Source of the DNA: Candidatus Altimarinota bacterium
Lineage (GTDB): Bacteria > Patescibacteriota > Gracilibacteria > CAIRYL01
Length of the DNA: 64,000 bases
Direction: 5' to 3'
Assembly (NCBI GenBank): GCA_965250085.1
Contig: OZ252287.1
Span: 416,001-480,000, forward strand
Shown: positions 53,594 to 64,000 of the stretch, in pieces
Position numbering within the stretch: the first letter of the stretch is position 1
Layout: each line of letters starts with the position of its first letter
The notes under the pieces: model-generated
Seen by the model: the letters and a program-made list of their open reading frames with translations, nothing else
What the model was told of the DNA's origin: nothing
The model's database searches: none
Program-made: the position numbers and the translations under genes

Positions 53594-53699
53594 ATGAGAA
53601 TTATTAAATTTTTCATAACTATATATATTTTTTAACATAAAAAATATATATTTGTCAAATATTTTACCTTTCCCGGTTTTCCCTATACACTTTTTGTAT

Positions 53700-55064
53700 A
53701 TGCAACAAACTGCTGTGCACATTGTAAAAATACTGCAAAAAGCAGGATATACTGCTTATTTTGCCGGTGGTGCTGTGCGCGATATTTTACTGGGAAATGA
53801 TCCAGTAGATATTGATATTGCCACCAGTGCCAAGCCGGATGAAATAGAACACCTTTTTGAAAAAACATTTTCTATCGGCAAGCATTTTGGCGTGATTTTG
53901 GTTGAAGAAAATGGACACCATTTTGAAATCGCCACATTTCGCTCAGACGCTGGATATAGTGATGGGAGAAGACCTGATGCCGTGCTTTTTACAAATGCTG
54001 AAGAAGATGCGTTGAGGCGTGATTTTACCATCAACGGAATGTTTTTTGATCCCATTGAAAAAAAAATTTATGACTTTGTTGGGGGGCAGAAAGACTTGGA
54101 TGGAGAAGTTTTACGATTTATCGGTGACGCAGAGCAAAGAATTCAGGAAGATCACCTGAGGATTTTGCGTGCCATACGATTTAAAAACAGGTTCCATCTC
54201 AGATTTGGGAAAAAAACGGAAGGAGCACTCAAAAGACATGCTTCTCTCATTGTAGGAGTCTCCGCCGAACGTGTGCGGGAAGAAATGACCAAGATGTTAC
54301 TTCATTCATCCAGAAAAAATGCTTTTGAAGATCTCCTTTTTCTCACTATTTTGGAACACATCATTCCTACATTTGCAGAGCTGAATAAAATCCCTCAGCC
54401 CAAAAACTACCATTCAGAAGGAGATGTTCTCACTCACAGCCTCTTGGTCATCAGTCAACTTCCAAAAAAAATAAATGCAGAACTTGCATGGTCAGCACTA
54501 CTCCATGACATTGGTAAAAAACAAGCATTTGTGAGAAAAAGCGACCGTATTCACTTCCCTCGTCATGCAGAGATGGGAGAAGAGATGGCAAAAAAGGTAC
54601 TGAGAAAATTAAAGTTTAGCAAATTTTCCGAAAGCAAAATCCGATGGCTCATCCGATATCATCACTTGTTTGATAGTTTTGATGAAATGAAATGGGTCAC
54701 CAAACTTCACTACTACGACCATCCGTTTTTTGAAGATTTGATGGAGCTCCATCGGGCTGACATGCTCGGATGCGTCCCTCTTGACCCCCATTTTCATGTT
54801 CGTGGACTCCAACATCTCAAACAAATCCGAGAAGAATATGAAAAAGCAGAGTTTGAAAACTTGCTTCCTTCGGCCCAAGAGGAATTCCTCACGGGAGAAG
54901 AAATCATGAAGATCTTGGACCTCAAGCCGGGAAAAAAAGTGGGAGAGATCAAATCTGCCCTGAGAGATGCACAACTCGATGGCGAGGTGAGGAGTAAAAA
55001 AGAGGCGGAGGAATGGATACGAGGAAAAAGTATGAAGAAAATACTTGACAAAAATATATTTTAG
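53700..55064 (+). CDS. cca: CCA tRNA nucleotidyltransferase / poly(A) polymerase family with HD domain
   Basis: AGGAVRD, DIDIAT, EIATFR, RRDFTIN, EDHLRILRAIRF, LLHDIGK. Confidence 0.92.
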   Translation: MQQTAVHIVKILQKAGYTAYFAGGAVRDILLGNDPVDIDIATSAKPDEIEHLFEKTFSIGKHFGVILVEENGHHFEIATFRSDAGYSDGRRPDAVLFTNAEEDALRRDFTINGMFFDPIEKKIYDFVGGQKDLDGEVLRFIGDAEQRIQEDHLRILRAIRFKNRFHLRFGKKTEGALKRHASLIVGVSAERVREEMTKMLLHSSRKNAFEDLLFLTILEHIIPTFAELNKIPQPKNYHSEGDVLTHSLLVISQLPKKINAELAWSALLHDIGKKQAFVRKSDRIHFPRHAEMGEEMAKKVLRKLKFSKFSESKIRWLIRYHHLFDSFDEMKWVTKLHYYDHPFFEDLMELHRADMLGCVPLDPHFHVRGLQHLKQIREEYEKAEFENLLPSAQEEFLTGEEIMKILDLKPGKKVGEIKSALRDAQLDGEVRSKKEAEEWIRGKSMKKILDKNIF

Positions 55065-55073
55065 TATTATGGT
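55045..55073 (+). promoter_or_regulatory. Sigma70-type promoter for 55106-56023
   Basis: TTGACA-17-TATGGT overlapping the cca 3' end. Confidence 0.5.
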
Positions 55074-55105
55074 GACATACTTCTTGTTTTTAACCCCTTC
55101 ACAAG

Positions 55106-56023
55106 ATGACAGAAAATACACCAGAAAATCCTTTATTATCTCAAAGAGAAGAAAGCTCTCCAAGTGACGGATCTCCAGAAGAACATGATTCTCATAGAAA
55201 GCTTTCCCGATTGAAGCAGTTTTTTCACTTGAAATCTTTCTTGCTCTTAGCTTTCTTATCAGCTGGAGCAGTAGATTACATTGAAAGAAGGACAGATAAG
55301 ATCGCCATAACGACGGTCCTACCCCAGATACAAGATCTCCTAGACGAGAGACCAGATTTTCAATTCGATAATACAGTACCTATAAGTGGTCGAATTAATA
55401 ATCTCCGACCAGGATACTTCGGTCCTTATGTATTATCTAATCCATCTCTCGAGTACAATTCTGGCACTAATGAATATGTTCTGGAATATGGGTTCGCACG
55501 TCCTAAGGATTTTAATTACCCTCATGATGATCCTAATTACTCTTATTATGATGATCTTAATCACCCTTATATTGGTAATGTTGATATTAAAACTATTCAA
55601 ATTCGAAAAAAGCGAGATGTTAATACTGTTTTATCTACAATGAAAACCCCTGAGGCTGTGGTAGATGAGATTCTATCGGAAATGATGACGGAAGATGGCA
55701 ATGGCACCTTTAAAAAGGGATATTTTATTGATCATGGGGCTTATTCAGAGATAGAAACAGAATACGATCAAATCGCCAATGAAAGAGTCTTACCACGAGT
55801 AAGAGATCTACTTCGACTAAATAATGAAGTACGTGGATCGATTTCCTATTATGATTCTGAGACTAATGAATATGCGCTATTCTATAGTGATTCTTCTGGA
55901 TCTGATCTTAAGGTTCGAACTGGTCGGGATAATAATGACGATTCATTCCCAGAGATGAAAACCCCTGACGCTGTGGTAGATGAATTTCTATCGGAAACGA
56001 TGAATCAAGGATCAGGCACTTAA
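55106..56023 (+). CDS. Membrane-anchored hypothetical protein with two internal repeats; 3' tail disrupted
   Basis: DxIAxxxVLPxxxDLL...TNEYxLxY...MKTPxAVVDExLSExM occurs twice; second repeat continues out of frame across the IS. Confidence 0.78.
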   Translation: MTENTPENPLLSQREESSPSDGSPEEHDSHRKLSRLKQFFHLKSFLLLAFLSAGAVDYIERRTDKIAITTVLPQIQDLLDERPDFQFDNTVPISGRINNLRPGYFGPYVLSNPSLEYNSGTNEYVLEYGFARPKDFNYPHDDPNYSYYDDLNHPYIGNVDIKTIQIRKKRDVNTVLSTMKTPEAVVDEILSEMMTEDGNGTFKKGYFIDHGAYSEIETEYDQIANERVLPRVRDLLRLNNEVRGSISYYDSETNEYALFYSDSSGSDLKVRTGRDNNDDSFPEMKTPDAVVDEFLSETMNQGSGT

Positions 56024-56041
56024 AAAGGGGTATTTTATTAA

Positions 56042-56751
56042 GGCTCTAGAGTAGGAGATTTTAAAAATCTCTGATAATTTTGGACATTATAACAAAAATA
56101 TCTTGATCTTTATAGTTCCATCGCCACTCACATTCTTTGAGGTGAAAGTTAAACTTGTGAGAAGCAATTCCGTTAAACTTAGAGAGTCTTCTTTTCGCAA
56201 AAGACCAAAAGGATTCAATACCATTTACATGACATTTTCCTCGTGCAAATTCATTTTCTGAGTGATGAATACGATAGTGATCATATCCATTGAGAATGAG
56301 TCCATCATAAGCTCTCCATCCATCAGTATGAATAGTTGATCCTTCTAGTATTTTTCCTTGAATAATAGGTAGGAGCTCTTTTCTGGAGCAATCTTTTACA
56401 ATAGAAACAAATACCCTTCCTTCTCTTTGAAGGATTCCAAAGACAGGAGTCTTTCCTGCGGCTCCTCTTCCTCTCTTTCCTCTCATTCTCTTTGCTCCAA
56501 AGTAACTTTCATCAAGTTCAAATTCTCCAAAACTCTTTGACTGTGCTAAAGAGAACTTTGCAATCTTTTCTCTAAAAATATTAAAATATCGATCAACCGT
56601 TCTCCGATTGAGATCTAGAATATTTGCTGTTTTTGATGCATTGAGATCTTCACAAAAACACTTCAATATTTTTTTGATCTTATAATTCGATATTTTACTG
56701 TGTTTAAGCATGTTAAGAGAATAATTGAAGTAATTATTCTACTCAAGAGCC
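56042..56751 (-). mobile_element. IS1595-family (IS1016-like) insertion sequence, copy 2, 710 bp
   Basis: Same 13-bp terminal inverted repeats; perfect 8-bp target duplication TTTATTAA (56034-56041, 56752-56759). Confidence 0.96.
56061..56711 (-). CDS. IS1595-family DDE transposase
   Basis: Identical to the 17362-18012 product except one Val/Met change. Confidence 0.96.
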   Translation of the reverse strand: MLKHSKISNYKIKKILKCFCEDLNASKTANILDLNRRTVDRYFNIFREKIAKFSLAQSKSFGEFELDESYFGAKRMRGKRGRGAAGKTPVFGILQREGRVFVSIVKDCSRKELLPIIQGKILEGSTIHTDGWRAYDGLILNGYDHYRIHHSENEFARGKCHVNGIESFWSFAKRRLSKFNGIASHKFNFHLKECEWRWNYKDQDIFVIMSKIIRDF

Positions 56752-56846
56752 TTTATTAATTATGGGTTAGATCAAGAATAAAGAAGCAGATACAAGAAAA
56801 TTACGAATTACGAGATAGGAATTCGATTCATAAAATTCTTTTTATA

Positions 56847-56875
56847 GTAGGAACGTAGCAGTGCTACGTTCGTAC
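56847..56875. repeat. GTAG-type REP-like palindrome
   Basis: GTAGGAACGTAGCA-G-TGCTACGTTCGTAC. Confidence 0.7.
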
Positions 56876-56885
56876 GAATTCCATA

Positions 56886-58565
56886 CTAACATGACACCGC
56901 CTGCCCAGTATCTGCATCAATAATATTTCCCGCCGCGTCATACATAGAGTTCCCATCTGCATCGATCTTGTGAGTCCCGCTAATGCTTCCGCCTTCTGGA
57001 CAAATGATTAAATAGGGAGGACCGATGCGGATCATCATAGCTCCCTCTCCTCCTTCGCACGGACATTTCTCCAGTTCTTTTTCAATGTCTGCCATTTCTT
57101 CTTGGAGTTCCTCGAGATCCTCTTTGAGCTTACGAATTTTTTCCCGCAATTTGGATGAAGACTCACGTGTCTTCCAAAACTCTTTGAGGGCGTCTGTCAT
57201 TCGTTCTGCAGCAGCTTCATCTGGACAGAAAAACTCTCGGTCTTGACTGCTCACTTTTCCGGTAGATTGTCCGTCTTGCACATCTCCGCCAGGGTTTTGA
57301 CCGGGATCACATCCGGCTTCGGCAATAAGTGCATCCAGATCAGTATTGAGCTCATCCTCACCACCTTCCGCATTTGCCAGCTCTTGTTCAGCGGCAGTAA
57401 CCTCACCTTCCAATATCACTTCCTCAGCCTGAAGTTCAATAAATTTCTGCCCGAGTCCAAAGCAATCAGGACATTCATCTCCCGATACCTTCTCTTCCTT
57501 TTTCTCTTTTTTCTTTTCGTCATCATCACCATCTCCGTCTCCATCTCCATCCCCGTCCCCGTCACCTGATGGCGCCGGTTTGCACTCCATCTCTCGTATA
57601 AGCCGAAAATCCGTATCATCACCCACAAACATTCCGGTCTTTTTGGTAATTTTGATCGGCGCTTGATCTGGCTCTTCAAGACGAATACCTGAGCTCGGTC
57701 TATCAGTTGTCATTTCAGCTTTGACACCTATGATGATTTCATGAACAAATTTTACTTTCCCGGGTTTCACGCAGGTAAATTGCCCGACATAAACATGTTT
57801 GTTTTTTGCAGGATCAGATATCAACCCATTGGGTCCAAGTGGTGGAGCAGATACATCTGTCTTTTTGGGAGCTGATGCGATCTCATCGGGACTCACGATT
57901 CCGTTGGGAAAGGCAGTAAGCTCCCCCTTAATATTCCATGGATCAGGCCGTGAAATCGTGACACGAGTGGTTCCCTGTACATCGGGACCAAAGGTCACAT
58001 TTGGTCCTCCTACTATTTCAATTATCTGAGTAGTTTGGGTTTTGGTGGTGGTGGTAGTTACGTCAAATTGCTCTCCTATAAGCGCTTCGGCTGGGTGGAT
58101 CATTTCGGCTTCAAAGGTATCTTCTGTGATGATCAATCGACTAAAGTGTGACATCTCTCCTCGTATTACCACTTCTTTCCCTGATGCATCGGGTTCTACC
58201 GCCACACTCACTTTTTCCAACACCCCATTTGAGAGATGATATACCGCTGGAACCGCATTTGGATTAGGAAGTGTAGTAGTCACAGCAAATTCTGCCGGCT
58301 GAGAAAAAGTGAGTCCATTTGGCTCAAAATTATAAATGGCGAGAGCCGGTACGTCATTGAGTGTCACGGTGAGATCTTGATCTGCACGAGAAATAGAAAC
58401 ATCTTCCATTCTCACATCTTCCGGGAGAATCTTCTCCTCCATATTCAGTTTCACCTGATGGTCATCAGAGAGGATCGTATTTCCTGTTTTTCGCATCGAC
58501 ATCACTCCAAAAATAAGAGCGATAAGCACTACAAGACCAACAATAACAAGAAGTATTTTTTTCAT
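56886..58565 (-). CDS. Membrane-anchored protein with ZU5-like domain (HFS motif), GD repeat and Cys-capped coiled coil
   Basis: N-terminal TM; YNFEPNGLTFSQPA...GEMSHFS; GDGDGDGDGDGDGDDD; CPDC, coiled coil, CPC. Confidence 0.72.
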   Translation of the reverse strand: MKKILLVIVGLVVLIALIFGVMSMRKTGNTILSDDHQVKLNMEEKILPEDVRMEDVSISRADQDLTVTLNDVPALAIYNFEPNGLTFSQPAEFAVTTTLPNPNAVPAVYHLSNGVLEKVSVAVEPDASGKEVVIRGEMSHFSRLIITEDTFEAEMIHPAEALIGEQFDVTTTTTKTQTTQIIEIVGGPNVTFGPDVQGTTRVTISRPDPWNIKGELTAFPNGIVSPDEIASAPKKTDVSAPPLGPNGLISDPAKNKHVYVGQFTCVKPGKVKFVHEIIIGVKAEMTTDRPSSGIRLEEPDQAPIKITKKTGMFVGDDTDFRLIREMECKPAPSGDGDGDGDGDGDGDDDEKKKEKKEEKVSGDECPDCFGLGQKFIELQAEEVILEGEVTAAEQELANAEGGEDELNTDLDALIAEAGCDPGQNPGGDVQDGQSTGKVSSQDREFFCPDEAAAERMTDALKEFWKTRESSSKLREKIRKLKEDLEELQEEMADIEKELEKCPCEGGEGAMMIRIGPPYLIICPEGGSISGTHKIDADGNSMYDAAGNIIDADTGQAVSC

Positions 58566-58647
58566 AAGGGGAAATAAGAAGCCTATAATGCGCAATTGTC
58601 TCCTCTGTAAGAGAAAATTGCAAATTTTATTTCTCTTTTGGAGCCAA

Positions 58648-58733
58648 TTACCAAGCCGATCCCTTTGTTAACACCGCTACAATAATCATAAGAGATATCA
58701 ATGCATAGAGCGCATTAATCACGAACAGATACG
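58648..58733 (-). pseudogene. 3' fragment of a diverged DUF1761 gene
   Basis: Encodes YLFVINALYALISLMIIVAVLTKGSAW* versus YLFVINALYALVAMMIIVAVLTKGSAW* in 59450-59872. Confidence 0.9.
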
Positions 58734-58941
58734 AGAAGAATATGAAAAAGCAGAGTTTGAAAACTTGCTCCCTTCAGCCCAATAGGAATTCCTCACGGGA
58801 GAAGAAATTATGAACATTCTGGACTTAAAGCCGGGAAAAAAAGTAGGAGAAATAAAATCTGCTTTGAGAGATGCACAGCTGGGAGGTGAAGTAAAAACGA
58901 AGAAAGAAGCGAAAAAGTGGACACAGAAGAGCTTTGGATAA
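58732..58941 (+). pseudogene. 3' fragment of a diverged cca gene
   Basis: EEYEKAEFENLLPSAQ*EFLTGEEIMNILDLKPGKKVGEIKSALRDAQL matches 54828-55017; in-frame TAG at 58783. Confidence 0.92.
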
Positions 58942-58959
58942 AAGCCTTAGTAGAATCTC

Positions 58960-58988
58960 TTGACATATATATATATATAGACTAGTGT
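58960..58988 (+). promoter_or_regulatory. Sigma70-type promoter with (TA)7 spacer
   Basis: TTGACA-TATATATATATATAGAC(17)-TAGTGT upstream of 59016. Confidence 0.55.
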
Positions 58989-59015
58989 AACTCCTCTACT
59001 TTCTATTATATTTTT

Positions 59016-59258
59016 ATGAGAAATCCATCAGAATTACAAGCTGCAGCGACAGCTGCACACGATGCAGGGGATTATGACGTGGTAAGACTCCCAAGCGGAC
59101 CATTGCAAGGAGGAGCAATATCAACGAGAGATTATATTACTCTAGTTGCAAGAGGAAAAGTAGATTGCGTTTTTGGTATGCCTCCCACTTACATTAAATT
59201 TCACGATACAGATCTTGGTGCAGGAATCAGAAAAATGTTTTTGAAAACCGTACGCTAA
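59016..59258 (+). CDS. Small hypothetical protein
   Basis: 80-aa ORF downstream of a promoter-like sequence. Confidence 0.55.
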   Translation: MRNPSELQAAATAAHDAGDYDVVRLPSGPLQGGAISTRDYITLVARGKVDCVFGMPPTYIKFHDTDLGAGIRKMFLKTVR

Positions 59259-59449
59259 AAGGTAAATAGATTGTACTGAATGCAGTCGAAGTATACTTTC
59301 ACTAGCGCGCGTTTGTAACCTTTGTTGGTCCAAGGTTGTACCTTGAACCTTAACGTTTTTTATTGTATCCATCTTAAAAAAAAGGTTTGGAGCTGTATTC
59401 TGAAGCTTTTCTTTACGAACTTTATAAACTTTCTACTTTCAACTCAACT

Positions 59450-59872
59450 TTACCAAGCTGACCCTTTTGTTAACACCGCCACAATAATCATCATCGCCAC
59501 TAATGCGTACAAAGCATTGATTACAAACAAGTATGGAGATTTTTTCTCCCAGAGCACCGCTCCCAAATAAATGGGAGCCTGAATCCCAAGCCAAATCAGA
59601 ACTCCGTAAATAAAGCTCTCCTCTAAAGATGGTGGATTCAAAAATCCAAATATCATTGCCAAGATATATATCGATATGATTTGGACAAGGAGTCCAAAAA
59701 ACAAACCCTTCATCGCTTCTCCGACGCCGGGATTTTCTTTATTCATTCCAGTGAATCTCATCCATTGTTTTCCAAACAAAAGTGGAGAATACCAGATCCA
59801 TCCCAGAAGCATCGTGAGAATCGATGCGATAAGAACACGAACCAAATCAATGTCAGAACTGAGAAAATCCAT
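59450..59872 (-). CDS. DUF1761 family membrane protein
   Basis: LGWIWYSPLLFGKQWM signature; four TM segments; LWEKK..LF.INALY. Confidence 0.9.
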   Translation of the reverse strand: MDFLSSDIDLVRVLIASILTMLLGWIWYSPLLFGKQWMRFTGMNKENPGVGEAMKGLFFGLLVQIISIYILAMIFGFLNPPSLEESFIYGVLIWLGIQAPIYLGAVLWEKKSPYLFVINALYALVAMMIIVAVLTKGSAW

Positions 59873-59932
59873 CGGAAAGAGAAAAAGGGAAACAATGTAA
59901 ATATACTCCTTTTATTTTTAACTCGGAAGAAT

Positions 59933-59966
59933 AAAAAGATCCCCACTCTTGAGAATGGGGATCTTT
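59933..59966 (-). terminator. Rho-independent terminator
   Basis: Minus strand AAAGATCCCCATTC-TCAA-GAGTGGGGATCTTT-TT. Confidence 0.75.
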
Positions 59967-59988
59967 AATTTCACGAAAAGAAAATATT

Positions 59989-61626
59989 TTATATCTTTCC
60001 AAGTTGACTGAGCTTGTAGAGCACTTTTGCCACTTCTCCTCTTGTCACCAATTGTGTGGGATACAAGCTGTTTCCGACAAACAGAGAATTGTCATAAGAG
60101 TACTTCCCGTAGCCAAAATACCACTGGCTGGTATCAGAAGCATCATTATACGATGTCCCTGCCGCTGGCATATCGTCACTTACATTTCGGAGGATCAGGG
60201 CAAGGAATTCAATACGATTGACACTGCGTGCTGGACGATACAACCCCGCATCAGCTCCAGACTGGTATCCAGTAATCATTTCCAGATCGACTCCTCTGCA
60301 GATATATTGTTGTGACCACGCACTTCCCGTGACATCTGGGAATGGATTCCCATCACAGTAATCTTGGTTTTCATCAAAAAGTCCAAATGCTTCGAGTGAT
60401 ATTTTGGCGATTTGATCACGTTGCAAAATTTCACCTGGACCAAATGTCCCGTCTCCATATCCCGTCATAGCACCAATGCTCTGCACATATTCGAGCGCAT
60501 CACAATCAGGATGATCAGCTGGAACATCAGTAAATTCTGCGCATGTATCATCATTTATTAGCTCTGGCTCTGGCTCTTCATCGGAAGCCATGACTTCTAC
60601 TGTCACTTTGTCTTCGTCTGTTCCAGCATCGTTTTCTACCATGACATGAACCGTATATTCACTATTTGGCACGGTGCTTCCTCCAGATTCTTCTCCATCC
60701 CAGACAGCATTTACTGTTCCTGCCGAAGTTGCTTCTGCATCTTTGAGCTTTCGAACTTCAACTTCATTTTCATTGAGGACAGAAATGGTAACATCAGCGT
60801 CATTGCTCAGGTCAAAAGTTACGGTAGTGGTGTCTTGATTCCCATCATCATCTGGTGAAAAAGGGTCTATTGTCATTCCCAAATCAGAAAGAGCAGGAGC
60901 TTCATCGGTAGTAACGGTCACTGTTCCTGTGGCAAGATCATTAGTATTCGCATCTCCTCCACAATATCCAGAATCGGCATACATCCTCCAGTCGTAATCC
61001 CCTTCTGCCGCCGCACCACCCCCCAGATCTCCATTCCAACTGGCAGTATGGTCTCCTGTGTTGAGGGGCCCATAAAACTCAATAAGCTCTCCGTCTACAC
61101 GCAATACAATACAAGCTGGCACTACTGTCTCCAGTGAAAAATCAATTTCATAGTCATTTCCACTGGTAATGGAATAGACTGTGGGGGCGTCATTTACCGT
61201 AATGTTTGATTCTTCCGTCACTTCAAACTCATGCATCAGTACATTGGTATCATTCGCAAACAGATCTGTACCCTGTATACGAAGTTCGTATGTGCCGGGC
61301 AAAGGATATCCTCCGGCAAACATTCCATCCCAACCAAATGTTTTTTGATCATTGGCGATTACCCAGTGACTATCGATTTCAAATTCCATCTCGGTAATAT
61401 GTCCCAGCGGACCTTTTACAAAAAAGTCCATGTCTACATCTTCTCCTTGGATTTCGCTAAGGTCATAGACAACGTCATACATTCCTCCTTCGTACACGTT
61501 GTATTCTGTTGCCGGAGTGGGATTGAAGGTGATCGTTGGCGGCTCTGCGAAGACAAGCGATGAGAAGAGGAAAGATCCAAATAAAAAGAACGCAAAATAC
61601 AAAAAACGAGTCATGTATTGATTCAT
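59989..61626 (-). CDS. Surface protein with three FlgD-Ig-like domains and C-terminal SLH repeats
   Basis: WDG/WNG..G.Y motifs three times, FSPDDDGNQDT; FTDVP...MTGYGDGTFGP...RDQIAK SLH; likely start MNQYMTRF. Confidence 0.85.
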   Translation of the reverse strand: MNQYMTRFLYFAFFLFGSFLFSSLVFAEPPTITFNPTPATEYNVYEGGMYDVVYDLSEIQGEDVDMDFFVKGPLGHITEMEFEIDSHWVIANDQKTFGWDGMFAGGYPLPGTYELRIQGTDLFANDTNVLMHEFEVTEESNITVNDAPTVYSITSGNDYEIDFSLETVVPACIVLRVDGELIEFYGPLNTGDHTASWNGDLGGGAAAEGDYDWRMYADSGYCGGDANTNDLATGTVTVTTDEAPALSDLGMTIDPFSPDDDGNQDTTTVTFDLSNDADVTISVLNENEVEVRKLKDAEATSAGTVNAVWDGEESGGSTVPNSEYTVHVMVENDAGTDEDKVTVEVMASDEEPEPELINDDTCAEFTDVPADHPDCDALEYVQSIGAMTGYGDGTFGPGEILQRDQIAKISLEAFGLFDENQDYCDGNPFPDVTGSAWSQQYICRGVDLEMITGYQSGADAGLYRPARSVNRIEFLALILRNVSDDMPAAGTSYNDASDTSQWYFGYGKYSYDNSLFVGNSLYPTQLVTRGEVAKVLYKLSQLGKI

Positions 61627-61789
61627 GAGAAAACGGGTAAAAGGGAAAATGTGTCTCCAATTTAACTCTCTCTGTCCAGAGAAATCAATAAAAAATACTT
61701 CCGCACCTTTCTCTTTTTTTACAAAGAACTTATCTTGCTCGCAGAAATAAAAAAATGTACAGTTCTCGAGCCTCTTTTTCGTGGCATCA

Positions 61790-64000
61790 ATGGCAAAAAT
61801 GATACGAATGGCGCACGTCGCCAAACATCTTGGCATTCCTTCTCAACAACTCAGAACATTGCTCTCTGAGGTCAATTTTGGCATCAAACCAACAGATCGT
61901 GAAGTGGAAGAAGGTGTCGCTTCTGGCATCGTGCGAGTAGCTTCCCAAAGACTTGGTATCAAATGCGAACCCTTTCCAGTCGAATCAGCAGAAGGATTAG
62001 AAGATGAAGCGCTCCAAGACACTGAGGAAACAGAAGTGTCATCTCAAACCGAAAAGAAAACAGCTCCTTCTGCTCTTTCAAAACTCAGCACTATTGCCGA
62101 AAAATCAAAGGAAGATATTCAAAAGAAGAAACAAGAACAACAAGAATCTCCTAAAAAACCTGGAATTCTCAGAAAAATAGAAATTTCACCTGAAGCGGCT
62201 GCAGAAGCGAAAGAACGAATGAAAGAGCAAGAAGAAGAACGCAGAAGACTGAAAGAAGAAAGAGAGCAAGAATCTCTGGAGCGCAAATTGCAACAAAAGA
62301 AAAAACAAGAACAGATTTTTACAAAAAAAGAAGGAACGGTAGAGCTTCCTGAAATGTTACCCGTAAAAGAGTTTGCAGAAAAAGTTGGTGTTCCCACCTC
62401 ACAGATTTTGAAGTCACTTATCAAAAATGGAGTTATGGCAACTCTCAACACCACTATTGATTTTGAAACTGCCGCTATTATTGCTGAAGAATTTGAAGTT
62501 CAGGTCAGAAAAGGACAAATAGAAGCTTCCTCTGAAAGTCTCTTTTTGGGGAACTTGAAAGAACTCCTCAATGATGAGCCAGAAAACATGACTGAAAGAC
62601 CTCCGGTAATAGTTGTCATGGGGCACGTTGATCACGGAAAAACGAGTATTTTGGATGCTATCCGTAAAACAAAAGTGGTGGAAGGAGAGGCGGGTGGTAT
62701 TACTCAGCACATTGGTGCATATCAGGTAGAAAAAAATAACAGGCTCATTACTTTTCTCGATACTCCCGGACATGAAGCTTTTACTTCAATGCGTGCTCGA
62801 GGTGCCAAAACAGCTGACATTGCTATCCTTGTTGTTGCTGGTGATGAAGGCATCAAACCGCAAACTGTAGAAGCTATTAATCATGCCAAAGATGCAGAAG
62901 TGCCCATTATTGTGGCAATGAACAAAATGGATAAACAAAATGTAAACCCAGATAAGGTAAAAGGAGAACTCGCAGAGCACGAACTTCAGCCAGAAGACTG
63001 GGGTGGAGAGACTCCTGTTATCCCTGTTTCAGCGTATACAGGAAAAGGGATTGAAGATCTTTTAGAAATTGTTGTGTTGCAGGCTGATCTTCTGGAGTTA
63101 AAAGCGAATTCAAATCGATCTGCAGTGGGAACTGTCGTCGAGGCACACTTAGATCCTTCCATGGGACCTGTCGCTACTATCTTAATAAATACCGGGACTC
63201 TCAAGGTAAAAGATACATTTTTGCTGGGGACACTGGGCGGGAGAATTAAAACAATGATTGATGATACTGGTACAAAGCTTTCTGAGGTCCCTCCTTCTGG
63301 AGCAGTGCAAATTTCTGGCATCAGTAAAGTTCCCGAAGCAGGAGATATTTTGCAAGTGTTTGAAAACGAAAAACTCATGAAAGCAAAGCTTTATGAAATA
63401 AAGACACTCCATTTGGAAAACCACGGCATCGGACTTGGAGTTTCTGAAATTATCAATCAATTACAACACGGGGAGATGAAGTTTCTCAAAGTTGTCCTTA
63501 AAGCAGATACAAACGGCTCATTACAAGCAGTTGAGCAGGCCTTAGCAAAAATAAAACATGAAGAAGTCGGAGCTAAAATAATCCATTCAGCGGTGGGGGC
63601 CATTACTGAAACTGATGTCATGATGGCAGCAGCGAGCCAGGGCGTAGTAATTGGATTTAATGTAATTATATCTCCTCGAGTGAAAAGAATTGCTGAAAAA
63701 GAAGGAGTAGAGATTATGAATTACGATATCATTTATAAGCTAACTGAGGACGTGGAAAAAATTCTGACCGGACTCCTGGAACCCGAGGAAATCGAAACGA
63801 TTCATGGCTCAGCAACAGTAAAAGCAGTGTTTTATACTCAGAAAAAAATGATGATTGTTGGATGCTCTGTCGATTCGGGAAAAATAAAACAAAAAGCCAA
63901 AGTTCGTATTTTCCGAAAGGGAGAAGGAGAAAACGAAGAAGGAGAAACCATAGAAATGGAAGTCCAAGCAGGAGAAGGTGTCATTGCATCACTTCAGCAT
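61790..64000 (+). CDS. infB: Translation initiation factor IF-2 (3' end beyond window)
   Basis: Absent from the ORF track because there is no stop in the window; reads [52 protein letters not shown] in frame with ATG 61790. Confidence 0.97.

What the first reader, a model, noticed from the sequence alone, without database searches (positions are those of the whole stretch)
54828..59872. Two alleles of the cca-DUF1761 variable slot captured in tandem through a microhomology joint
Seen: the order is cca(full), cargo A (55106, IS, 56886), DUF1761 3' fragment, joint, cca 3' fragment, cargo B (59016), DUF1761(full). The fragments differ from the full genes mostly at synonymous sites (24 of 27 DUF1761 residues identical despite many base changes), so they look like orthologs from a related lineage rather than decayed local duplicates. 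The joint AACAGATACGAGAAG (58724-58738) resembles both cca AACAAATCCGAGAAG and DUF1761 AACAAGTATGGAG. Known: homology-facilitated illegitimate recombination during natural transformation gives one homologous anchor and one microhomology joint. Inference: a snapshot of integrase-free gene acquisition that stacks cargo between convergent core genes.
Basis: partly seen in the sequence, partly recalled or inferred. Interest (0 to 1): 0.72.

Follow-up and report, generated by a model that had tools for sequence, protein, structure and literature searches.

The report
Foreign gene segment stacked beside cca
In a small candidate-phyla-radiation bacterium, a 3.9-kb piece of a related lineage's chromosome sits in tandem beside the resident version of the same locus, joined through a 7-base microhomology; it is a tidy natural footprint of a recombination route already known from laboratory work.

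Summary
A 207-nt copy of the cca 3' end (83% identical, one in-frame TAG) and an 80-nt copy of the DUF1761 3' end (78%) abut at 58722-58731, giving cca / cargo A / DUF1761' | cca' / cargo B / DUF1761 with a period of 3904 bp. Differences are overwhelmingly synonymous (dN/dS about 0.03-0.06; P=1.7e-7 against half-neutral decay), so both fragments spent most of their divergence inside working genes. The joint lies where resident cca and DUF1761 share CAAACAA in register (P about 0.001). Independent k=31 contigs from four runs of one sample cross the joint at genome depth, so it is not an assembly chimera. Best reading (about 0.6): DNA from a congeneric lineage entered through one homology-guided junction in cca and one microhomology junction. 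The flanking duplication fits single-crossover integration of a recircularised fragment, or template switching, better than textbook linear HFIR. The route of entry is untested, though ComEC, DprA, RecA and pilus ATPases are present. Corrections: DUF1761 is not core, because the two closest relatives have cca directly followed by infB. No congener genome exists to show that the slot varies. Divergence along the cca repeat is graded (6% to 39%), so this is not a fresh snapshot. It is a known kind of event and of moderate interest.

The parts
53652..55064 (+). Full-length CCA tRNA nucleotidyltransferase (cca); probable true start ATG at 53700
   Evidence: PolyA_pol, PolyA_pol_RNAbd and HD domains. 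Relatives start at the residues encoded from 53700.
54814..55020 (+). Left copy of the 207-nt direct repeat (3' end of the working cca)
   Evidence: Repeat family D1, 83% identical to 58718-58924.
54828..54865 (+). 38-nt exact repeat, identical to 58732-58769
   Evidence: Longest exact run. k=31 contigs break exactly here.
55106..56023 (+). Cargo A gene 1: 305-aa protein with an internal repeat and no family
   Evidence: Only a sub-threshold FidL_like hit. No match in 40 relatives and no paralogue in the genome. Internal repeats D4/D5.
56042..56751 (-). IS1595-family insertion sequence (transposase 56061-56711) with 8-bp target duplication at 56034-56041 and 56752-56759
   Evidence: DDE_Tnp_IS1595 and NF033547. 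14 copies at 99.2% identity or more in the genome. Ends and target duplication read. Matches a 710-nt contig at about 14 times genome depth.
56886..58595 (-). Cargo A gene 2: 569-aa protein with a hydrophobic N-terminus, an acidic Gly-Asp run and a coiled-coil-like part; no family
   Evidence: No Pfam family. Only coiled-coil-type noise in PHROGs and NCBIfam. Weak 29-31% matches to part of it in 3 of 40 relatives. No viral relative. N-terminus and acidic run read by eye.
58648..58731 (-). DUF1761 3' fragment (last 27 codons plus stop) with no start codon of its own
   Evidence: Repeat family D2. 23 of 26 residues identical with pS 0.74. tblastn 86%.
58722..58731 (.). Microhomology joint: the stretch readable as either parent
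   Evidence: Three-way alignment. Both readings differ from the resident genes only by synonymous changes in their own frame (inspection).
58724..58941 (+). cca 3' fragment (about 72 codons) with an in-frame TAG at 58783-58785 and its own stop at 58939-58941
   Evidence: the genome search reports 86% identity with 1 TAG.
59016..59258 (+). Cargo B: 80-aa ORF with no family; not shown to be a real gene
   Evidence: No hit in Pfam, PHROGs, NCBIfam or the Atlas.
59450..59872 (-). Full-length DUF1761 gene
   Evidence: PF08570, E=1.3e-25.
59989..61836 (-). 615-aa FlgD-Ig / SLH-domain surface protein; also part of the island between cca and infB
   Evidence: Not found between cca and infB in the two closest relatives.
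61781..64000 (+). infB (IF-2), the ancestral right-hand neighbour of cca
   Evidence: 67% identical to the ORF that directly follows cca in G004 and G001.

Best explanation
The interval between cca and infB in this Peregrinibacteria-like genome is an accessory island. DNA from a related, probably congeneric, lineage carried that lineage's version of the island's left part: the cca 3' end, two unknown membrane or surface genes, and the DUF1761 3' end. This DNA was integrated next to the resident version. One junction is homology-guided and lies inside cca. The other is an illegitimate joint at a short microhomology (CAAACAA in today's resident genes) between the incoming DUF1761 and the resident cca. 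The result is a 3904-bp tandem unit that leaves cca and DUF1761 intact and leaves one dead 3' fragment of each at the joint.

Shown: the structure, the selective history of the fragments, the microhomology, and the physical reality of the joint.

Inferred: the foreign origin, which copy is native, and the route. Three routes fit: a single crossover with a fragment recircularised at the microhomology, linear homology-facilitated illegitimate recombination with overlapping ends, or a replicative template switch. I rank the circle or template-switch routes above textbook linear HFIR because recipient DNA is duplicated rather than replaced. Later events were an IS1595 insertion, a nonsense mutation in the cca fragment, and probably partial homogenisation of the repeat next to the joint.
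For: (1) Topology: direct repeats D1 (207 nt, offset 3904) and D2 (80 nt, offset 802) abut at 58718-58727.
(2) Selection: cca has 65 codons with Sd 23, Nd 10, pS 0.575, pN 0.065. DUF1761 has 26 codons with Sd 14, Nd 5, pS 0.74, pN 0.085. Pooled, 15 of 52 changes are non-synonymous, against 65% expected if one copy had drifted neutrally (binomial P=1.7e-7). The DUF1761 fragment has no start codon, so selection acted while it was part of a whole gene (inspection).
(3) Each fragment's nearest known relative is the resident gene. The cca C-terminus matches the resident at 57 of 64 residues, against a best of 46 of 64 among 29 database homologues. The best database DUF1761 is 33% identical. The donor was therefore closer than anything sequenced.
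(4) Microhomology: an in-register 7-mer at the joint, P about 0.0014.
(5) The joint is real. One 2038-nt contig (56724-58761) crosses it in 4 of 4 runs. Depths are 13.8-24.1, against 15.5-24 for cca and 19.2-23.1 for DUF1761. The shared flanks do not sum in depth, and no second-strain contig of 80% likeness or more lies on the cargo.
(6) No integrase, tRNA gene or phage signal in the island.
(7) The machinery for uptake and homologous exchange is encoded: ComEC, DprA, three PilB/PilT-type ATPases and RecA.
(8) Laboratory precedent: most supposed HFIR products in E. coli were duplications of part of the homologous locus, made by a single crossover of a recircularised molecule (PMC3240628, abstract and passages). 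Transformation also creates tandem duplications in pneumococcus (PMC3784515, abstract).
Against: No genome of the supposed donor lineage, or of any congener, is available. 'Foreign' therefore rests on the substitution pattern over only 91 codons, and on the view that a 1.37-Mb genome would not keep two cca genes for long.

No mosaic breakpoint in cca could be sought.

Nucleotide identity of 75-83% is low for RecA-driven exchange; the longest exact run today is 38 nt.

Divergence along the cca repeat is graded, from about 6% near the joint to 39% at the 3' end (change-point permutation P=0.001; synonymous-only Fisher P=0.001). Relatives show no matching synonymous constraint there. A one-step model does not predict this gradient and needs an added conversion or duplication step.

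The k=31 contigs cannot phase the 38-nt exact repeat, so I did not verify the assembled order myself.

All four runs come from one sample, probably the source of the assembly, so this is not independent replication.

Competence families are common: the controls ring in 10-14 of 14 well-known genomes.
Confidence: 0.6

Rival explanations
1. Two complete tandem copies followed by a deletion. The genome once held cca1-A-DUF1761a and cca2-B-DUF1761b side by side, both working for a long time. A single microhomology-mediated deletion then removed the 5' parts of DUF1761a and cca2, creating the joint.
For: It gives exactly the same final topology. It explains low dN/dS, since both copies were functional before the deletion. 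It explains the microhomology, because deletions also use microhomology. It explains why each fragment's nearest relative is the resident gene.
Against: It needs two events, and the first (a diverged tandem pair) itself requires foreign DNA or a very old duplication. Synonymous sites are near saturation (pS 0.58-0.80), so a 1.37-Mb streamlined genome would have had to keep two cca genes for a very long time. The genome has no other cca copy. A genome-wide scan lists almost no other non-IS gene fragments near their full-length gene: 32 rows in all, mostly IS-related.
Confidence: 0.15
2. A tandem duplication within one lineage of the segment from the cca 3' end to the DUF1761 3' end, followed by divergence and cargo turnover. 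No foreign DNA is involved.
For: A tandem duplication with end points inside two convergent genes gives this gene order and a microhomology joint. The part of the repeat next to the joint is only about 6% diverged.
Against: Truncated copies should drift neutrally, which would give at least 65% non-synonymous changes; 15 of 52 were observed (P=1.7e-7). Cargo A and cargo B share no similarity. The 80-nt DUF1761 fragment is 22-24% diverged yet 23 of 26 residues are unchanged, and it has no start codon that would let it be selected as a gene.
Confidence: 0.07
3. An assembly or phasing artefact. Either two strains were co-assembled, or the true state is a chromosome (cca-B-DUF1761) plus a separate 3904-bp circle or variable tandem array, wrongly resolved across the 38-nt exact repeat.
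For: k=31 contigs break at the exact repeat (two paths in, two out), so the contigs I could see do not fix the order. All runs come from one sample.
Against: The joint itself lies inside a single contig at genome depth in 4 of 4 runs, and only about 8 nt are shared there, so a de Bruijn graph cannot invent it. The shared flanks do not have summed depth. The alternative phasing would put the TAG (58783-58785) into the only cca gene. Any read of 100 nt or more spans 38 nt. The genome is one closed 1,368,807-bp contig in which 14 near-identical IS copies are resolved.
Confidence: 0.05
4. A site-specific integrative element that targets the 3' end of cca and carries a replacement 3' end, as many islands do at tRNA or protein genes. 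The two cca copies would be attL and attR.
For: A direct repeat of a gene's 3' end flanking an insert, with the gene kept intact, is the classical look of such elements (established knowledge, recalled). A 38-nt exact core exists.
Against: No integrase or recombinase lies in or beside the insert. All six ORFs between cca and infB were scanned, and only an IS1595 DDE transposase with its own target duplication was found. There is no phage family or viral relative. An element would not be expected to end in a fragment of the chromosome's own neighbouring gene, DUF1761, in the same relative orientation as in the chromosome.
Confidence: 0.05

Closest known systems
Homology-facilitated illegitimate recombination (HFIR) in naturally transformable bacteria (de Vries and Wackernagel 2002; Meier and Wackernagel 2003; seen only as entries in the reference list of PMC13344027; details recalled; PMC122324 not held)
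   Same: One end of the foreign DNA is guided by homology and the other is joined at a microhomology of a few bases. No integrase is involved. Non-homologous genes are carried in.
   Different: Textbook HFIR of a linear fragment replaces or deletes recipient DNA next to the anchor. Here 207 nt of recipient-type sequence are duplicated on both sides of the insert. Uptake by transformation is not shown. Donor and recipient are only 75-83% identical.
Single-crossover (Campbell-type) integration of a linear fragment recircularised by illegitimate joining (Amarir-Bouhram, Goin and Petit 2011, PMC3240628; abstract and passages read)
   Same: The product is a duplication of part of the homologous locus flanking the insert: 56 of 60 clones there, with duplications of 109-950 bp in the 14 sequenced clones. 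The 207-nt cca duplication and the 3904-bp period fit a 3.9-kb circle closed at the microhomology.
   Different: That work used a plasmid-borne substrate delivered by conjugation into E. coli, with identical homology. Here the case is a natural event between diverged chromosomes, and no circle has been observed.
Transformation-triggered merodiploids and tandem duplications in Streptococcus pneumoniae (Johnston et al. 2013, PMC3784515; abstract read)
   Same: Incoming DNA that pairs at two alternative places produces a tandem duplication, which leaves essential genes intact and spare copies free to change.
   Different: Those duplications are 100-900 kb, are bordered by long IS-derived repeats, and arise by homologous pairing at both ends. 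Here the unit is 3.9 kb with one microhomology joint and diverged copies.
Integrase-free hotspots of gene turnover between conserved genes (Oliveira, Touchon and Rocha 2017, PMC5635113; Mol Biol Evol 2025, PMC12359135; first paper seen as a search listing, passages of the second read)
   Same: Accessory genes are concentrated in one interval (cca to infB) and exchanged through recombination in flanking genes, without a mobile-element integrase.
   Different: Normal hotspot exchange replaces one allele with another. Here both versions are kept in tandem and the illegitimate joint is preserved.

Membership tests
HFIR product | One junction between non-homologous sequences at a short microhomology | tested here: met
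   In-register 7-nt CAAACAA in resident cca and DUF1761 at the joint. P about 0.0014 over 200,000 random registers.
HFIR product | The other junction lies in homologous sequence (the anchor) | tested here: inconclusive
   The left junction is seamless and in frame within cca. No breakpoint could be mapped for lack of congeners. Graded divergence suggests a crossover or conversion zone at about 54905-54973.
HFIR product | The inserted DNA is foreign to the recipient | tested here: inconclusive
   dN/dS of 0.03-0.06 shows that the fragments were parts of working genes. A long-lived functional paralogue is not excluded.
HFIR product | Recipient DNA beside the anchor is replaced or deleted, not duplicated (recalled from the HFIR literature; also stated as the prediction in PMC3240628) | tested here: not met
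   207 nt of cca are present on both sides of the insert.
HFIR product | DNA entered by natural transformation | not testable with these tools
   ComEC, DprA, PilB/PilT-type ATPases and RecA are encoded. This shows capacity only.
Campbell-type single crossover of a circular molecule | A direct repeat of the homologous segment flanks the whole insert, and the repeat period equals the circle length | tested here: met
   Repeats at 54814-55020 and 58718-58924 with a period of 3904 bp. The insert ends exactly at the joint.
Campbell-type single crossover of a circular molecule | A circular intermediate exists | not testable with these tools
   No joint that skips the unit, and no circle-specific contig, is listed in the contigs laid. 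Contigs drop rare forms, so this says little.
Site-specific integrative island | An integrase or recombinase gene within the element | tested here: not met
   Pfam scan of all six ORFs between cca and infB found only an IS1595 DDE transposase with its own 8-bp target duplication.
In-situ tandem duplication | Truncated copies diverge neutrally from the parent genes | tested here: not met
   15 of 52 changes are non-synonymous, against at least 65% expected (P=1.7e-7).
Variable slot between core genes (hotspot) | Both flanking genes are conserved neighbours in relatives, and the content differs among genomes | tested here: not met
   cca is followed directly by infB in the two closest of 9 relatives examined. 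DUF1761 was found in 9 of 41 genomes, at 37% identity or less outside this locus. No congener is available to show variation.

The most novel reading that the evidence does not exclude
Candidate-phyla-radiation bacteria with competence machinery may routinely build and diversify their surface-protein islands without integrases. They would capture chromosomal DNA from diverged congeners through one homologous and one microhomology junction. The products would be tandem allele stacks, in which old and new versions coexist until one is pruned. This locus would be the first preserved intermediate of that process.
Probability: 0.12. Interest if true: 0.6.

Novelty: new member of a known kind. Interest (0 to 1): 0.4.

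Why it matters
Illegitimate recombination assisted by nearby homology is well documented in laboratory transformation and conjugation experiments. Natural products that still carry both parental gene stubs, so that the joint can be read base by base, are seldom pointed out. My three literature searches on the topic listed no natural case in the 37 rows shown. This is not a claim that none is in print.

Here the substitution pattern dates the stubs to working genes of another lineage. That gives sequence-level evidence that an uncultivated, host-dependent bacterium with a 1.37-Mb genome exchanges chromosomal DNA with relatives only about 80% identical. It also shows that such exchange can add genes rather than only swap them. 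Saccharibacteria have recently been shown to be naturally competent (PMC10633639, seen only as a search listing).

The value is that of a clean case study, not of a new mechanism.

Tried and rejected
Search for the donor or any congener. The species-representative genomes hold no second genome of this genus, and DUF1761 matches outside this locus are 37% identical or less. The protein database gave 74% as the best cca and 33% as the best DUF1761. The planned catalogue of the slot in relatives, a real phylogeny, and a mosaic scan of cca were therefore impossible.

Synteny. cca followed by infB was found only in the 2 closest of 9 relatives fetched. The other 7 showed no infB within the 2.3-4.7 kb fetched downstream of cca.

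Generality within this genome. A self-blastn listed 143 nearby pairs, mostly internal repeats of proteins. A tblastn scan of 1188 selected ORFs gave 32 fragment rows, mostly from two IS families. Apart from the two fragments studied, only a few short cases remained (928930-929163, 1205897-1206052 and 149380-149502 in genome coordinates). Stacking is therefore not a genome-wide habit. I looked at 921.5-932.5 kb and found a paralogue family, not this phenomenon.

Function of the cargo. Pfam, PHROGs, NCBIfam, the protein Atlas (best score 0.81, below the usable level; no hit for the 80-aa ORF) and a viral contig scan gave nothing usable.

Promoter scan. There is a TTGACA-17-TATGGT site at 55045-55073, but promoter-like sites are not enriched in the region: 13 found against 19.7 expected.

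Two-block mosaic. I first split the cca repeat at 54908 (5 of 84 against 28 of 111 differences, Fisher P=0.0004). The maximum-likelihood change point is instead after 54973, so I describe a gradient rather than two blocks.

C-terminal tail as a clue to which copy is native. Rejected, because tail lengths after the conserved Trp vary from 5 to 22 residues among 8 relatives.

Contigs laid from public runs show no form that skips the 3904-bp unit and no second allele. Contigs drop rare variants, so this is not evidence of absence.

Full report
WHAT IS THERE. The window is bases 416001-480000 of a single-contig genome of 1,368,807 bp with 40% G+C. Sources name its cca homologues as Peregrinibacteria or Gracilibacteria, so it is a candidate-phyla-radiation bacterium. 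The gene order at the finding is as follows.
- cca, ORF 53652-55064 (+). The relatives' start corresponds to ATG 53700.
- A 305-aa ORF of no family, 55106-56023 (+).
- An IS1595-family element, 56042-56751, with the 8-bp target duplication TTTATTAA. It is one of 14 copies at 99.2% identity or more.
- A 569-aa ORF of no family, 56886-58595 (-).
- An 84-nt stub of the DUF1761 3' end, 58648-58731 (-).
- A 218-nt stub of the cca 3' end, 58724-58941 (+).
- An 80-aa ORF, 59016-59258 (+).
- Full DUF1761, 59450-59872 (-).
- A 615-aa FlgD-Ig/SLH protein, 59989-61836 (-).
- infB, from 61781 (+).

The cca stub matches 54814-55020 at 83% over 207 ungapped nt, at an offset of 3904 (E=6.7e-53 in a whole-genome self-search). 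The DUF1761 stub matches 59450-59529 at 78% over 80 nt, at an offset of 802 (E=7.7e-8). The longest exact run is 38 nt (54828-54865 = 58732-58769). The cca stub has one in-frame TAG (58783-58785) and no indel before its last few codons. Beyond each stop codon the two versions lose similarity, so cargo A and cargo B are unrelated.

THE STUBS WERE ONCE PARTS OF WORKING GENES. Nei-Gojobori counts give the following.
- cca: 65 codons, 23 synonymous and 10 non-synonymous differences, pS 0.575, pN 0.065.
- DUF1761: 26 codons, 14 synonymous and 5 non-synonymous differences, pS 0.74, pN 0.085.
If one copy of each pair had drifted neutrally since a local duplication, at least about 65% of changes should be non-synonymous. 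Only 15 of 52 are (binomial P=1.7e-7). The DUF1761 stub has no start codon of its own, so this constraint cannot be current. The sample is small (91 codons) and the test ignores transition bias. Saturation at synonymous sites, however, makes the test conservative.

THE JOINT. In a three-way alignment the hybrid follows DUF1761 up to about 58731 and follows cca from about 58724. Within 58723-58731, both readings differ from the resident genes almost only by changes that are synonymous in their own frame (my reading). The resident cca and the resident DUF1761 (+ strand) share CAAACAA in register exactly there. Such a run occurs in 0.14% of random registers of the two genes.

NOT AN ASSEMBLY CHIMERA. 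Four public runs, all of one sample and probably the source of the assembly, hold the stretch. Their k=31 contigs, built independently of the deposited assembly, tile the region with zero mismatches:
- ...-54857
- 54836-56068
- 56042-56751 (the IS, at about 14 times genome depth)
- 56724-58761
- 58740-...
The 2038-nt contig crosses the joint in all four runs. Its depth is 13.8-24.1, the same as cca (15.5-24) and DUF1761 (19.2-23.1). A two-strain mixture would double the depth of the shared flanks, and that is not seen. The breaks at 54836/54857 and 58740/58761 are exactly what a 38-nt exact repeat does to a k=31 graph, so these contigs cannot phase the repeat. The other phasing would give a 3904-bp circle plus a chromosome whose only cca carries the TAG. 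I consider that unlikely but did not exclude it.

THE CONTEXT CHANGES THE STORY. In the two closest genomes of the species set (cca 66% and 64% identical), cca is followed on the same strand by infB after a gap of about 90 and 200 nt. Their DUF1761 homologues, 36% and 27% identical, lie on other contigs. Seven more distant relatives show no infB within the 2.3-4.7 kb fetched downstream of cca. So the whole 6.7 kb from 55065 to 61780 is an island inserted between cca and infB, and DUF1761 is island content, not a core gene. DUF1761 was found in 9 of 41 genomes. In a 5.8-billion-protein collection its best relative is 33% identical, and the best cca is 74%. Over the repeated 65 residues the stub matches the resident cca at 57 of 64, while the best of 29 database homologues matches the stub at 46 of 64. 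The stubs and the resident genes are therefore each other's closest known relatives. The other parent was a close, unsampled lineage, or else an old paralogue in this genome. The claim of a slot that varies among genomes cannot be tested at present.

HOW IT MOST LIKELY AROSE. The structure is a tandem unit of 3904 bp: [cca 3' part, cargo A, DUF1761 3' part, joint]. Three histories give this topology.

(a) One event with homeologous DNA: a homology-guided junction in cca plus a microhomology junction. Textbook linear HFIR predicts loss or replacement of recipient DNA. Here 207 nt are duplicated, which is what a single crossover with a recircularised fragment gives. In E. coli, 56 of 60 candidate clones had that structure, with duplications of 109-950 bp in the 14 sequenced clones (PMC3240628, passages and abstract). 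A break-induced copy of donor DNA that switches back to the chromosome at the microhomology would give the same product. Transformation-induced tandem duplication is also known in pneumococcus (PMC3784515, abstract).

(b) Two complete tandem copies, later fused by a microhomology deletion. This needs two events and the long-term maintenance of two cca genes in a 1.37-Mb genome.

(c) A local duplication followed by drift. The substitution pattern rejects this.

I put (a) at about 0.6, (b) at 0.15 and (c) at 0.07. An artefact or circle gets 0.05 and an integrase-type element 0.05. The island has no recombinase, tRNA gene or phage signal. The genome encodes ComEC, DprA, three PilB/PilT-type ATPases, RecA and a MutS-domain protein. 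Uptake by transformation is therefore possible but not shown, and these families also ring in 10-14 of 14 control genomes.

AN UNEXPLAINED DETAIL. Divergence along the cca repeat is not uniform. It is about 6% in 54820-54904 and 39% after 54973 (maximum-likelihood change point, permutation P=0.001). Counting synonymous changes only, there are 4 in about 16 sites against 19 in about 24 (Fisher P=0.001). The two closest relatives show no extra synonymous conservation in that stretch: 9 of 19, 11 of 19 and 7 of 22 identical codons, against 40-48% elsewhere in the gene. The gradient is thus not a constraint on the RNA or DNA. Either the part next to the joint was homogenised, through heteroduplex repair at the event or later gene conversion, or it is recipient DNA that was duplicated at the event. 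In the second case its 6% divergence dates the event as old. The IS copies, by contrast, are 99.2% identical or more, so the IS insertion is recent. The TAG lies downstream of the 38-nt exact run. Loop-out through that run would therefore leave the only cca gene with a premature stop, which may help to keep the stack in place (inference).

CARGO. The 305-aa and 569-aa proteins have hydrophobic N-terminal segments (by eye). They have no paralogue in the genome, no family and essentially no match in 40 relatives. The exception is 29-31% identity to part of the larger protein in 3 same-order genomes. The protein Atlas and a viral contig scan gave nothing usable. Together with the neighbouring SLH protein, this suggests an island of envelope proteins. 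That is only a suggestion.

VERDICT. The stubs do come from working genes of another copy or lineage, and the joint is a microhomology joint in real DNA. However, DUF1761 is not core, variability among genomes is unshown, the geometry is not that of textbook HFIR, the entry route is unknown, and the event is not recent. The case is a natural instance of recombination classes already known from experiments. It is rare within this genome: a scan of 1188 selected ORFs gave 32 fragment rows, mostly IS-related, with few other non-IS cases. Interest is moderate (0.4).

LIMITS. All read evidence comes from one sample. The selection test rests on 91 codons. For PMC10633639 and PMC5635113 I saw only the search listings. 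For PMC12359135 and PMC13344027 I read passages only.

Noticed in passing
window 53641-53665 and 55038-55062: A 25-nt inverted repeat (92% complementary) brackets the cca gene almost exactly. Each arm contains TTGACA. The right arm overlaps the last codons of cca and forms the best promoter-like site of the region, upstream of ORF 55106. Only 4 places in the genome match the arm with 4 substitutions or fewer. These are probably outward-facing promoters. Not explained further.
   Followed up: partly
window 56042-56751, and 13 other places in the genome: A 710-nt IS1595-family element is present in 14 copies at 99.2% identity or more, with an 8-bp target duplication here. Contig depth of about 14 times genome depth agrees with that copy number. 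A second IS family with a 314-aa transposase has at least 7 full copies. That is a high IS load for a 1.37-Mb genome.
   Followed up: partly
window 55640-55730 and 55955-56040: ORF 55106-56023 contains two copies of an internal module (49 nt at 92% identity and 21 nt at 90%). The second copy ends early at a stop 18 nt before the IS. By eye, DNA similarity to the first module resumes after the IS, so the gene's 3' end may be degraded.
   Followed up: partly
window 57518-57566: A Gly-Asp-coding repeat inside the 569-aa ORF attracts many unrelated contigs and loose ends in the laid runs, with depth of 156-446 in that bin. This is a low-complexity effect and not a variant of this locus.
   Followed up: no
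L024 (genome 921500-932500, outside the window): Directly downstream of dprA lies a run of same-strand paralogous genes that share 5' and internal segments at 62-100% identity. They include a LysM protein, alpha/beta-hydrolase-like proteins, an 885-aa Ig-domain protein and an IS200-like Y1 transposase homologue with a 272-nt near-exact tandem repeat. This is a different kind of diversification from the cca stack.
   Followed up: partly
window 58962-58980: A short (TA)n run lies between the cca stub's stop codon and the 80-aa ORF. Its significance is unknown.
   Followed up: no
window 59935-59966 (- strand): A strong terminator-like hairpin (14 pairs followed by a T run) lies between the SLH-protein gene and DUF1761. 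DUF1761 is therefore probably transcribed on its own.
   Followed up: no
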